Shown in pieces: positions 6,457-8,346 of a stretch of 64,000 bases of DNA; positions within the stretch are counted from its first letter, which is position 1, and every line of letters starts with the position of its first letter. The notes beneath the pieces were generated by a model, which was not told the DNA's origin, ran no database searches, and was given only the letters and a program-made list of their open reading frames with translations. Location of the stretch: assembly GCA_000004985.1 (NCBI GenBank), contig GG738873.1; one strand, 5' to 3'. A program made the translations under genes and the position numbers. This DNA comes from Naegleria gruberi. Lineage: Eukaryota.

Positions 6457-8346
6457 ATGTCAGAATTATGGACAAGTGTCAGTTCAGAATTTTATAAAGC
6501 AAAGATGGTGAATTTTTATGTGTTTGTTCGAGGTTATGGGCAAAGATTTCACATTCTTGAAGATTTTGATATCATCATCACGTCCAGAAACTTGTTTTTG
6601 GAAAAGTTTAGATACTACCAGAAGGGTAGTGGAAAGAGAACTGAGAAGGGTCATTTATTCGAAACTTCTGACTTTGAATTTATAAATGTTCACCCATTTT
6701 CCGTTTACCAGGTGGATGAGGCTGCAACTGGCTTGAATTTGAGTGTTATAGTTGCTAAACCATCATGTGAATCATCAACTCTTCTTTCGTTTGATTACGA
6801 ACCTTCACTTTTCAACTCATGGCAAATAATGAATTTGACAGAAGGGAAAATGATTTGTGATTACGACATGGAGTGCTTGAAAAGATATAACAAGATCGAG
6901 TTTAAATTGATATCTATGGTACGTTGGTGATTTATTTCTAACAATCAAAAGGTGAATCAACAAATTATTCGAAATGAAATTTCATCAGTCTACGGATTGA
7001 CCAGTAATTCCTCAATTTCCCAATTAGAATCTCTTTACCTTCCACCATCATGCCACAATTGTCAAAATGAATATTGTGCCGATCTCATCTTTAACGATTT
7101 CGAATATTGGTTAATTCCACAAACTTTAATTGTAATCATTCATTTTCTTTTCCTTTTTTGTACTGGAGCATTGAAACAGCCATCAGTCAAGAGAAGATTA
7201 TTCACGCCCTATTTACCAATCACTATTTTATATATCGAGTTGGCTATTTCTGATTTGTTTTGGCCAATTTGCAATCAATTGTTGACAAGTATTGGAATTA
7301 TTGTTAATTTTTGCATTCTAGTTCATTTGTTTACCTATTTAAGGTTATATTATTTGAGGAATTTGTATGGAGTATTTTCATTATCAAAGAATATCAATTC
7401 TAAACTGTCAGGATTAGGTGGTATAATTCCTGGAATGTTAGTTACATTAATTTTACCATTTTTCTTAAGTTTTTTGGTTTCTGTTCCATATATTGCAATC
7501 TATTTCATGGTTAATTTGGCTCTCAATTTAGTATTCAACATTATTCTTGGCATTTCACTTGGTGTTGCCTGCATCATTGGATTTATTGTAATCTTAATTG
7601 ACTTGGTTCTCAATAGGAAGAAGTGGAAAGAGAAGGGTTTGAGATATATGCTTTTCTTTGACGATCCATTCCTCATTAGAATTGACATGACCTTGTTAAC
7701 AATTAATTTGATTTTTATCATTTTGATTGCATCGGTAGGAGCTGTCTATCGACATGCTTCATACTTTTTCAGAGTGATGGTTTTTATGATATTTTGTTTG
7801 GTGAGTGGTGGAAGTTGTGTGATTAAATTATTGGTTGAAAAGATGAGAGGAAATTCGAGGGATCACCAGGGAGAGGAGGATGTGATTGACACCTATCTGA
7901 AACATGATGATTTTAAGATGCTGTTTAGGGAATATTGTGTGAAGGAGTTGTCGTTGGAGAATTTTAATTTTTATATCATGTTAATTGATTTGAAAGCAAA
8001 GGCAAATAGGAGGTTGACCACTGAGATGATGGATACTATTCAGAAAGAGTATTTGTCATCTTCAGCTATGTTCGAATTGAATATTTCAAGTCAGTGTAGA
8101 CAATCTTTTTTCTTATTAAGGAAAAATCTCGAAAAGCAAATTGCCAATTTAGAATTATCATCTAATAAGGATATGGCCTCTGATTCTGGTGAATCTCCAT
8201 GTTTGAGAATTCATGATTTAATTTTATTGTTCGAATATGAAGTGTTAACAAATCTCAAAGATACATTCTCAAGAATGGAGAAAACAAGTGAATTCAGAAC
8301 ATGGCTTCATACTCTCAAAATTCAAAAACAAAACAACATTTGTTAA
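6457..8346 (+). CDS. Seven-transmembrane protein with C-terminal RGS domain (7TM-RGS), 2 exons: join(6457..6918,6952..8346)
   Basis: Exon 2 encodes about 7-8 hydrophobic helices followed by an RGS box (FKMLFREYCVKELSLENFNFYIMLIDLK...). A 33-nt in-frame intron 6919..6951 (GTACGT..TTCTAAC..AAAAG) removes the TGA separating the two ORFs. Confidence 0.65.

What the first reader, a model, noticed from the sequence alone, without database searches (positions are those of the whole stretch)
6457..8346. Seven-transmembrane receptor with intracellular RGS domain
A ~150-aa N-terminal domain, about 7-8 predicted helices and a C-terminal RGS box in one polypeptide is the 7TM-RGS architecture (the AtRGS1 / fungal GprK type). 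It couples a GPCR-like sensor directly to G-alpha GTPase acceleration and is rare outside plants, fungi and some protists. The two ORFs are joined by a 33-nt, in-frame, stop-containing intron that a naive ORF scan would split.
Basis: partly seen in the sequence, partly recalled or inferred. Interest (0 to 1): 0.5.

Follow-up and report, generated by a model that had tools for sequence, protein, structure and literature searches.

The report
Naegleria seven-helix receptor with RGS domain
This is a real gene for a membrane receptor fused to a G-protein "off-switch" (RGS) domain, but it is one ordinary, already catalogued member of a large receptor family known in Naegleria amoebae, and its annotated start is probably cut short by an assembly gap.

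Summary
Exon 1 (6457..6918) and exon 2 (6952..8346), joined across a 33-nt GTACGT…CTAAC…AG intron, give a 618-aa protein. It is 100% identical to the public Naegleria gruberi model XP_002676220.1 / D2VIA2, named only "predicted protein".

- **RGS:** Pfam RGS passes its curated cut-off (28.1 vs 23.9 bits).
- **Contact residues:** the G-alpha contact residues tested are conserved (SLEN, ELN).

The architecture is not rare here. Naegleria fowleri has 28 7TM-RGS proteins, some shown to be GAPs, and this gene has at least 80 strong relatives, all named ones from Naegleria or Willaertia.

Two things are new. The 5' end is probably truncated: paralogues carry about 95 more N-terminal residues with a signal peptide, and matching coding sequence lies at 6330..6456, behind an N-gap and a frameshift at the lone N at 6402. 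The ectodomain also looks like a diverged bacterial-type solute-binding fold (NMT1/OpuAC-like).

Verdict: correct call, known kind, low interest.

The parts
6214..6233 (+). Candidate true start codon and first codons (MAQHIW) of the gene, cut off by the assembly gap
   Evidence: It is the first ATG after an in-frame stop and lies directly before the N-run. Paralogues start MSPHTIKH... and MHPSSLF..., followed by a hydrophobic signal-like helix. Inference only.
6234..6328 (.). Assembly gap (95 N) that most likely hides the signal peptide and the first strand of the ectodomain
   Evidence: N-run located. Paralogues have about 50-60 residues between Met1 and the segment that matches 6330...
6330..6398 (+). 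Upstream coding segment of the ectodomain (YLTAVMWKDVANEYKLKSTGDLN), in a different frame from the annotated CDS
   Evidence: tblastn places P0002 aa 51-72 at 6330..6395 in frame +3. This is collinear with the main hit but weak on its own (E 0.57). It matches the family motif YLxxFxW...NIxSxxD.
6402..6402 (.). Single ambiguous base marking a probable 1-nt indel (frameshift) in low-quality sequence next to the gap
   Evidence: The frame changes between 6398 and 6403, exactly at the lone N.
6403..6918 (+). Exon 1: ectodomain coding sequence.
   Evidence: tblastn places P0002 aa 75-711 at 6403..8340 in one frame. Alignment A1. The public model is identical from 6457.
6919..6951 (+). 33-nt phase-0 spliceosomal intron with GTACGT donor, TCTAAC branch-point-like motif at -14 and AG acceptor. 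It contains an in-frame TGA at 6928..6930.
   Evidence: Sequence. Its removal gives gap-free collinearity with paralogues. The public model uses the same splice. Other obligatory introns of 35-64 nt with the same signals occur in the window. The motif alone is only about 2x enriched over chance (11 observed, 5.5 expected).
6952..7095 (+). Exon 2, first part: end of the ectodomain with the conserved juxtamembrane Cys motif (LPPSCHNCQNEYC)
   Evidence: The family consensus LxxSxCHxCxxTxC has invariant Cys residues. No Lys or Arg excess, consistent with an extracellular position.
7096..7845 (+). Seven-transmembrane GPCR-like domain (ORF2 aa 49-298). Family-invariant cytoplasmic motifs are YYLRNLY at the end of TM3 and NRKxxKxKG...FFDDPFxxRxD between TM5 and TM6.
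7852..8331 (+). RGS domain (ORF2 aa 301-460), joined to TM7 by only a few residues. A low-complexity insert lies at about aa 404-419.
8344..8346 (+). Stop codon TAA

Best explanation
The locus is a protein-coding gene of Naegleria gruberi, public locus NAEGRDRAFT_68613. It encodes a receptor-type GTPase-activating protein made of three parts: an extracellular domain, a GPCR-like seven-helix membrane domain, and a cytoplasmic RGS domain attached almost directly to helix 7.

Shown here:
- the gene structure (two exons, one 33-nt intron);
- the seven-helix GPCR-like fold;
- the RGS fold, with conserved G-alpha contact residues in its first half;
- membership of a large family whose named members are all from the Heterolobosea (Naegleria, Willaertia).

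Inferred mechanism, by analogy with N. fowleri 7TM-RGS2-4 and Arabidopsis AtRGS1: the RGS domain is held at the membrane and accelerates GTP hydrolysis on one or more of the many Naegleria G-alpha subunits, some of which exchange nucleotide spontaneously. An extracellular cue sensed by the ectodomain would change the receptor's conformation, clustering or residence at the surface. That would release or strengthen this brake.

The ectodomain is most likely a diverged type II solute-binding-protein fold (NMT1/THI5- or OpuAC-like). This would make a small molecule the likely cue.

The annotated 5' end (ATG 6457) is most likely an artefact of an assembly gap plus a sequencing frameshift. The real protein probably begins near 6214 with a signal peptide.
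For: Identity of the organism and gene:
- The window's EF-G ORF is 679/679 identical to the N. gruberi protein.
- The spliced product is 618/618 identical to XP_002676220.1 / D2VIA2.

RGS domain:
- Pfam is above its cut-off, and 35 of 42 family members hit RGS.
- The family profile hits only RGS domains in the PDB, including full-length matches to RGS10 and RGS7.
- The equivalents of RGS4 S85, E87, N88 and N128 are conserved and invariant across the family.

7TM domain:
- AlphaFold2 pLDDT is 85.9 with seven helices.
- Lys and Arg cluster in the loops after TM1, TM3, TM5 and TM7.

Family:
- 140 cluster representatives at E<=1e-3, 80 at E<=1e-10, many spanning both the 7TM and RGS parts.
- Named members are from N. 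gruberi, N. lovaniensis and Willaertia magna.

Function by analogy: N. fowleri has 28 7TM-RGS proteins. The RGS domains of three of them are GAPs for Nf G-alpha 2, 3, 5 and 7 (PMC9283941).

5' truncation:
- Paralogues have about 95 extra N-terminal residues that start with a hydrophobic helix.
- The 618-aa model has no hydrophobic segment before aa 204.
- Collinear homology lies at 6403..6456 and 6330..6395.

Ectodomain fold:
- Foldseek hits the solute-binding proteins EgtUC, OpuBC, OpuAC and YehZ at probability 0.96, E about 0.03.
- A homologous ectodomain passes the Pfam NMT1 cut-off (24.2 vs 20.5 bits).
- That ectodomain is linked to the window's subfamily by hhalign at probability 96%, E 2.4e-9.
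Against: - No transcript or protein evidence was available, so splicing and the 5' end rest on comparative inference.
- The Pfam RGS match covers only the first 60% of the profile. The second half is supported only by structure prediction and by eye (DTFSR against RGS4 DSYRR).
- GAP activity, G-alpha partners and any ligand are untested for this protein.
- The frameshift near 6402 could be genuine, which would make this a pseudogene.
- The 98.5%-identical sister-strain contig L001 carries a 2-nt deletion inside the gene.
- Between the two strains this gene differs about ten times more than its neighbour: 20 substitutions against 2.
- The solute-binding assignment for this protein's own ectodomain has no direct sequence support.
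- The Foldseek matches for the ectodomain are weak (TM-score below 0.3).
Confidence: 0.8

Rival explanations
1. Decaying paralogue (pseudogene). The gene belongs to a birth-and-death receptor family. This copy is no longer functional, and the frameshift at about 6400 is real rather than a sequencing error.
For: - The frame changes at 6398-6403.
- The sister-strain contig L001 has a 2-nt deletion at 7205-7206 that breaks the reading frame, plus a 12-nt deletion.
- There are 20 substitutions in 1.4 kb of this gene against 2 in 1.4 kb of the neighbouring gene.
Against: - The frameshift coincides with an ambiguous base about 75 nt from an assembly gap, which is typical low-quality sequence.
- A 464-codon ORF is intact in 31% GC DNA.
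- All family-invariant motifs and the RGS contact residues are retained.
- Substitutions are 10 synonymous to 10 non-synonymous, roughly dN/dS 0.3 and not neutral.
- The AlphaFold model is high-confidence.
Confidence: 0.13
2. Two independent genes: a small soluble protein (6457..6930) and a separate membrane-RGS protein (6952..8346), with no splicing between them.
For: A naive ORF scan lists two ORFs. No cDNA was available. The splice-signal motif alone is only about 2x enriched over chance.
Against: - Both ORFs are collinear with single paralogous proteins, with no gap at the junction.
- ORF2 has no ATG before ORF2 aa 160, so alone it would lack TM1-TM3.
- ORF1 alone would be a fragment of the ectodomain.
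- The public model splices them.
Confidence: 0.03
3. The RGS-homology domain is a scaffold rather than a GAP (as in GRKs or axin), or the seven-helix domain also acts as a conventional exchange-factor GPCR. In either case the protein would not be simply a ligand-gated brake.
For: - Not all RGS domains are GAPs (PMC3971589).
- Naegleria has both self-activating and slow-exchanging G-alpha subunits, and both types interact with 7TM-RGS proteins (PMC9283941).
- The 7TM fold matches G-protein-coupling GPCRs.
Against: - The residues that contact G-alpha switch regions in RGS4 (E87, N88, N128) are conserved and invariant in the family.
- The related N. fowleri RGS domains are active GAPs that use the canonical interface (PMC9283941).
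Confidence: 0.12

Closest known systems
Naegleria fowleri 7TM RGS proteins (Nf 7TM RGS1-4; family of 28; Bosch, Jeck & Siderovski 2022, PMC9283941)
   Same: Same genus and same architecture: extracellular N-terminus, seven helices, C-terminal RGS. Both belong to a large lineage-specific expansion. The RGS domain has canonical G-alpha contact residues. Relatives of the window protein occur in N. lovaniensis and Willaertia.
   Different: The described N. fowleri examples have EGF-like, lectin and GPS-motif ectodomains. This protein's ectodomain looks like a solute-binding-protein fold instead. No biochemical data exist for this protein.
Arabidopsis AtRGS1 (plant 7TM-RGS)
   Same: A seven-helix membrane domain is fused to a C-terminal RGS box. 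The presumed logic is the same: a receptor-type GAP restraining self-activating G-alpha (PMC9283941, PMC8584482).
   Different: - AtRGS1 has essentially no ectodomain and a longer linker (from general knowledge).
- Here there is an ectodomain of at least 245 aa, and the RGS domain follows TM7 within a few residues.
- No sequence relationship of the membrane domain to plant proteins was detected: named hits are Heterolobosea only.
- Plants have one copy, whereas Naegleria has dozens.
Class C GPCRs (mGlu, TAS1R, GABA-B) and GPR158-RGS7
   Different: - Class C receptors use a type I (LIVBP-like) flytrap, whereas this ectodomain looks type II (NMT1/OpuAC-like).
- There is no Pfam 7tm_3 match.
- Here the RGS domain is fused in cis, so the output is GAP rather than GEF.
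Fungal GprK-type receptors
   Same: Same domain order, 7TM followed by RGS (from general knowledge; not tested here).
   Different: No fungal protein appeared among the named relatives. Membership was not tested.

Membership tests
RGS domain (Pfam PF00615) | Profile match above the curated gathering score | tested here: met
   28.1 bits against a cut-off of 23.9, E 2.8e-6, profile positions 6-75 of 117. 35 of 42 family members also match.
RGS domain (Pfam PF00615) | All-helical RGS-box fold | tested here: met
RGS domain (Pfam PF00615) | G-alpha switch-contact residues of the alpha3-alpha4 and alpha5-alpha6 loops (RGS4 S85, E87, N88, N128) | tested here: met
   ELSLENFNFY aligns to EYSEENIDFW, and ELNISS aligns to EVNLDS. 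E, N and N are invariant in the family. The PDB alignments (RGS17, GAIP, RGS10) show the same register.
RGS domain (Pfam PF00615) | C-terminal contact residues (RGS4 D163, R167) | tested here: inconclusive
   DTFSR is invariant in the family and lies in the structurally matched region. No residue-level alignment to RGS4 was obtained, so the match was made by eye only.
RGS domain (Pfam PF00615) | GTPase-accelerating activity on a G-alpha subunit | not testable with these tools
   Needs a biochemical assay. Related N. fowleri domains are active (PMC9283941).
7TM-RGS receptor-GAP architecture (AtRGS1, Nf 7TM RGS) | Seven transmembrane helices and an RGS domain in one polypeptide, with the RGS C-terminal | tested here: met
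   Seven helices followed by the RGS domain in the model. GPCR-like fold. The single polypeptide depends on the 33-nt splice.
7TM-RGS receptor-GAP architecture (AtRGS1, Nf 7TM RGS) | Topology with N-terminus outside and RGS in the cytoplasm | tested here: met
   Lys and Arg are concentrated after TM1, TM3, TM5 (6 in that loop) and TM7, with none in the other loops. Paralogues have signal-like N-terminal helices. This is a prediction only.
7TM-RGS receptor-GAP architecture (AtRGS1, Nf 7TM RGS) | Sequence homology of the membrane domain to AtRGS1 or to Nf 7TM RGS1-4 | not tested
The exhaustive phmmer search returned relatives whose named members are N. gruberi, N. lovaniensis and Willaertia magna only.
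Established GPCR sequence families (Pfam 7tm_1/2/3, Dicty_CAR, Frizzled, etc.) | Profile match to a curated 7TM family | tested here: not met
   No Pfam family other than RGS at E<=1. No PDB sequence hit to any receptor. The resemblance is at fold level only.
Type II solute-binding protein fold (NMT1/THI5-like, OpuAC-like) for the ectodomain | Profile match of the ectodomain | tested here: not met
   Nothing was found for the window protein or its closest paralogue, or for the ectodomain profile against PDB sequences. A distant family member does pass the NMT1 cut-off (24.2 vs 20.5 bits). Its ectodomain is homologous to the window's subfamily (hhalign probability 96%, E 2.4e-9).
Type II solute-binding protein fold (NMT1/THI5-like, OpuAC-like) for the ectodomain | Two-lobed alpha/beta fold similar to solved solute-binding proteins | tested here: inconclusive
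Spliceosomal intron | GT...AG boundaries with branch-point motif, size typical for the genome, and removal restoring a conserved reading frame | tested here: met
   GTACGT...TCTAAC(-14)...AG. Other obligatory introns of 35-64 nt occur in the window. The junction aligns gap-free with paralogues. The public model is identical.
Spliceosomal intron | Absence from mature mRNA | not testable with these tools
   No transcript data were available. The related contig L001 starts exactly at 6951 and does not cover the intron.

The most novel reading that the evidence does not exclude
This gene represents a large heterolobosean subfamily of 'flytrap GAP-receptors'. In these, a bacterial-type type II solute-binding domain (NMT1/THI5- or OpuAC-like) sits on a GPCR-like seven-helix domain whose helix 7 runs almost directly into an RGS domain. 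That would be a small-molecule sensor built like a class C GPCR but wired with the opposite sign: ligand control of a GAP rather than of an exchange factor. This ectodomain type is not mentioned in the N. fowleri 7TM-RGS description that I could read (PMC9283941).
Probability: 0.45. Interest if true: 0.45.

Novelty: new member of a known kind. Interest (0 to 1): 0.2.

Why it matters
It matters little as a discovery. The 7TM-RGS class, its expansion in Naegleria and its GAP activity on self-activating G-alpha subunits are published, and this very gene model is already in GenBank and UniProt as an unnamed predicted protein.

There is modest practical value in three places:
1. It gives a functional label to an uncharacterized N. 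gruberi protein.
2. It flags that the public model is probably N-terminally truncated by an assembly gap, which would mislead topology and localisation predictions.
3. It suggests that one branch of the family carries a solute-binding-type ectodomain. That would point to small-molecule cues for a receptor class whose ligands are entirely unknown.

Tried and rejected
- **N. gruberi genomic DNA for paralogues:** I wanted it for P0002 and for the public model P0261, to test whether the intron position is shared. Neither is on record.
- **Sister-strain contig L001:** it begins exactly at window 6951, so it says nothing about the intron or the 5' end.
- **JGI metagenome scan for relatives of exon 1:** this was meant to recover an intact 5' end. 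Patterns matched 81 stretches, but none was a relative.
- **afdb50 fold library:** not available, so AtRGS1 could not be compared at fold level.
- **Ectodomain profile against PDB sequences:** only chance-level hits.
- **Anantharaman et al. 2011 (PMC3396428):** the most likely prior description of such architectures, but not held.
- **The DNA search with a degenerate splice pattern:** rejected on syntax and replaced by a script.
- **TGA read-through or an alternative genetic code instead of an intron:** rejected. Long standard-code ORFs ending in TAA, TGA or TAG occur throughout the window. The 11 extra residues have no counterpart in any paralogue.
- **Functional gene cluster around the locus:** rejected. 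The neighbours are unrelated housekeeping and signalling genes, including PRPP synthetase, GDSL lipase, EF-G, actin, SHMT and RasGEF.

Full report
**What is in the sequence.**
The window is AT-rich eukaryotic DNA with GC about 0.32. ORF 6457..6930 (157 aa) and ORF 6952..8346 (464 aa) are in the same frame and are separated by a single TGA. The 33 bases 6919..6951 read GTACGTTGGTGATTTATTTCTAACAATCAAAAG. This is a consensus donor, a CTAAC branch-point-like motif 14 nt from the 3' end, and an AG acceptor. Removing them gives a 618-aa product.

**Source and public status.**
The EF-G-like ORF at 10452..12830 is identical to the N. gruberi protein at all 679 aligned positions. The window is therefore from the Naegleria gruberi reference genome. 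An exact look-up showed that the 90%-identity cluster of the best hit contains a 618-aa N. gruberi entry: EFC43476.1 / XP_002676220.1 / UniProt D2VIA2, locus NAEGRDRAFT_68613, named 'predicted protein'. That annotation carries no functional name.

**Is the intron credible?**
- Three N. gruberi paralogues (46-48% and 31% identity) align across the junction ...LISM|VNQQ... without a gap. Read-through would add 11 residues, including a stop, with no counterpart.
- ORF2 has no ATG until about residue 160, so on its own it could not encode TM1-TM3.
- A scan for short GT...AG segments whose removal is required to join open frames found other clear cases of 35-64 nt with the same signals. Examples are 2567..2601(-) GTAAGT...ACTAAC...AG, 13786..13831(-), 31839..31881(-), 58704..58744(-) and 53225..53267(+).
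- The bare motif is only about twice as frequent as in shuffled sequence: 11 observed against 5.5 ± 2.5 expected. The weight therefore lies on the paralogue alignment, not on the motif.
- No cDNA could be consulted.

**RGS domain.**
- Pfam RGS scores 28.1 bits (cut-off 23.9), but only over profile positions 6-75 of 117. The second half is separated by a low-complexity insert.
- A profile built from 42 family members hits 33 distinct PDB sequences, all of them RGS domains. The hits include RGS17, RGS18, RGS1, RGS10, RGS7, RGS4 and EhRGS-RhoGEF, and several cover the whole box.
- The residues that in RGS4 contact the G-alpha switch regions are conserved. SLEN corresponds to S85-E-E87-N88 and ELN to E-V-N128. 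They are invariant across the family.
- DTFSR is also invariant and looks equivalent to RGS4 D163...R167. That part was matched only by eye.

**Membrane domain.**
- The model has seven long helices, at ORF2 aa 49-70, 77-98, 104-136, 146-176, 191-220, 242-262 and 267-298.
- No class is clearly preferred, and no Pfam 7TM family matches even at E<=1.
- Lys and Arg cluster after TM1 (LKQPSVKRR), after TM3 (YLRLYYLRNLY...SKNINSK), after TM5 (NRKKWKEKGLR) and after TM7. The other loops have none. This fits an N-out, C-in topology that places the RGS domain in the cytoplasm.
- Family-invariant cytoplasmic motifs (YYLRNLY, FFDDPFxxRxD) are candidate coupling surfaces. This is inference.

**The 5' end is probably wrong.**
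- The paralogues carry about 95 more N-terminal residues, which begin with a hydrophobic, signal-peptide-like helix.
- The 618-aa model has no hydrophobic segment before residue 204. That is implausible for a roughly 200-aa extracellular domain.
- Upstream of ATG 6457 the same frame stays open and homologous back to 6403 (...LLKQQHDLNIAYIPTNSK|MSELW against paralogue MKKQNSLKIVFISSETKLNKLW).
- Further upstream, a different frame encodes YLTAVMWKDVANEYKLKSTGDLN at 6330..6398, which matches paralogue YMSAIIWKDVS.... This short hit is weak alone (E 0.57) but collinear.
- The frame change falls at the lone ambiguous base 6402, about 75 nt from a 95-N assembly gap at 6234..6328.
- An ATG at 6214 (MAQHIW...) directly precedes the gap and resembles the paralogues' starts.
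- The simplest reading is that the gene starts near 6214.

**Ectodomain.**
- A full-length AlphaFold2 model of paralogue P0002 (pLDDT 80.7) shows an alpha/beta domain at residues 31-270.
- Apart from GPCRs, Foldseek finds type II solute-binding proteins: EgtUC, OpuBC, OpuAC and YehZ. The probability is 0.96-1.00 but E is only about 0.03 and TM-scores are low.
- One distant family member's ectodomain passes the Pfam NMT1/THI5 cut-off (24.2 vs 20.5 bits), and another hits weakly.
- hhalign links that subfamily's ectodomain to the window's subfamily at probability 96%, E 2.4e-9, over 145 columns.
- The window protein itself has no such sequence hit.
- I regard a diverged solute-binding fold as likely but not established.

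**Family and literature.**
- An exhaustive phmmer search with ORF2 found 140 cluster representatives at E<=1e-3, 80 at E<=1e-10 and 28 at E<=1e-30. Many span both the 7TM and RGS regions.
- All named members are from N. gruberi, N. lovaniensis or Willaertia magna. The rest are unnamed metagenome proteins.
- Bosch, Jeck and Siderovski (PMC9283941) report 28 7TM-RGS proteins in N. fowleri. They show that the RGS domains of three of them accelerate GTP hydrolysis on Nf G-alpha 2, 3, 5 and 7 through the canonical interface. They also show that some Nf G-alpha subunits are self-activating.
- de Mendoza et al. (PMC3971589) count 229 RGS proteins in N. gruberi and note 7TM-RGS architectures in many bikonts.
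- So the architecture is abundant, not rare, in this lineage, and its likely mode of action is already framed.

**Mechanism.**
- Shown: the gene structure, the folds, the conserved contact residues and the family membership.
- Inferred: the RGS domain is tethered at the membrane within a few residues of TM7 and acts as a GAP on one or more Naegleria G-alpha subunits. A cue bound by the ectodomain, plausibly a small molecule, would alter receptor conformation or surface residence and so modulate that brake, as proposed for AtRGS1.
- Whether the seven-helix domain also has exchange-factor activity cannot be told.

**A caveat on function.**
A metagenome contig from a close relative (L001) is 98.5% identical to window 6951..10080. 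Within this gene it differs by 20 substitutions (10 synonymous, 10 non-synonymous), a 12-nt deletion, and a 2-nt deletion at 7205-7206 that breaks the frame. The neighbouring gene differs by two synonymous changes and a 6-nt indel. This paralogue therefore evolves fast, and the sister copy may be disabled. That is typical of large receptor families, and it leaves a modest chance that the window copy is also decaying.

**Verdict.**
The element is an uncharacterized member of a known, experimentally studied family, and it is already present in public databases. It is not novel in kind. The additions from this analysis are the probable 5' truncation of the public model and the possible solute-binding-type ectodomain.

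Noticed in passing
window 5087..5944 (+) and 23472..24737 (-): Two dispersed paralogues share a 63%-identical, 155-aa Cys-rich C-terminal domain (E 2e-68). They have different low-complexity N-termini: a GRGG/KGG repeat in the first and a Ser/Lys-rich stretch in the second. Neither matches any Pfam family.
   Followed up: partly
window 10452..12830 (+): This is a mitochondrial-type EF-G / RRF2-like gene. The public N. gruberi model removes 23 residues (ORF aa 668-690) although the ORF reads straight through them. It may be an over-called in-frame intron, or a real one that happens to be open.
   Followed up: no
L001 (ENA metagenome ERZ929261 contig), aligned to window 6951..10080: This environmental Naegleria strain is 98.5% identical to the reference. 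Its contig starts exactly at the first base after the intron's penultimate position. Inside the 7TM-RGS gene it carries a 2-nt deletion (window 7205-7206) and a 12-nt deletion (7290-7301). The gene shows about 10x more substitutions than the adjacent gene 8518..9957.
   Followed up: partly
window 8518..9957 (-): The convergent neighbour gene encodes a 479-aa Ser/Thr/Asn-rich protein with no Pfam match. It is almost invariant between the two strains.
   Followed up: no
window 36992..38164 (-) and 38222..39436 (-): A protein made of seven DUF4116 repeats lies directly next to a protein kinase with a C-terminal DUF4116 repeat. They may be a tandem pair of related signalling genes.
   Followed up: no
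window 60001..64000: GC content falls to 0.17-0.24 at the end of the window, against about 0.32 elsewhere.
   Followed up: no
window 7096..7845 and family alignment A2: Strictly conserved cytoplasmic motifs occur in the 7TM domain of the whole family: YYLRNLY at the inner end of TM3, NRKxIKxKG and FFDDPFxxRxD before TM6, and GG in TM7. Nothing comparable was found in Pfam GPCR families. They could form the interface with G-alpha or with the RGS domain.
   Followed up: no
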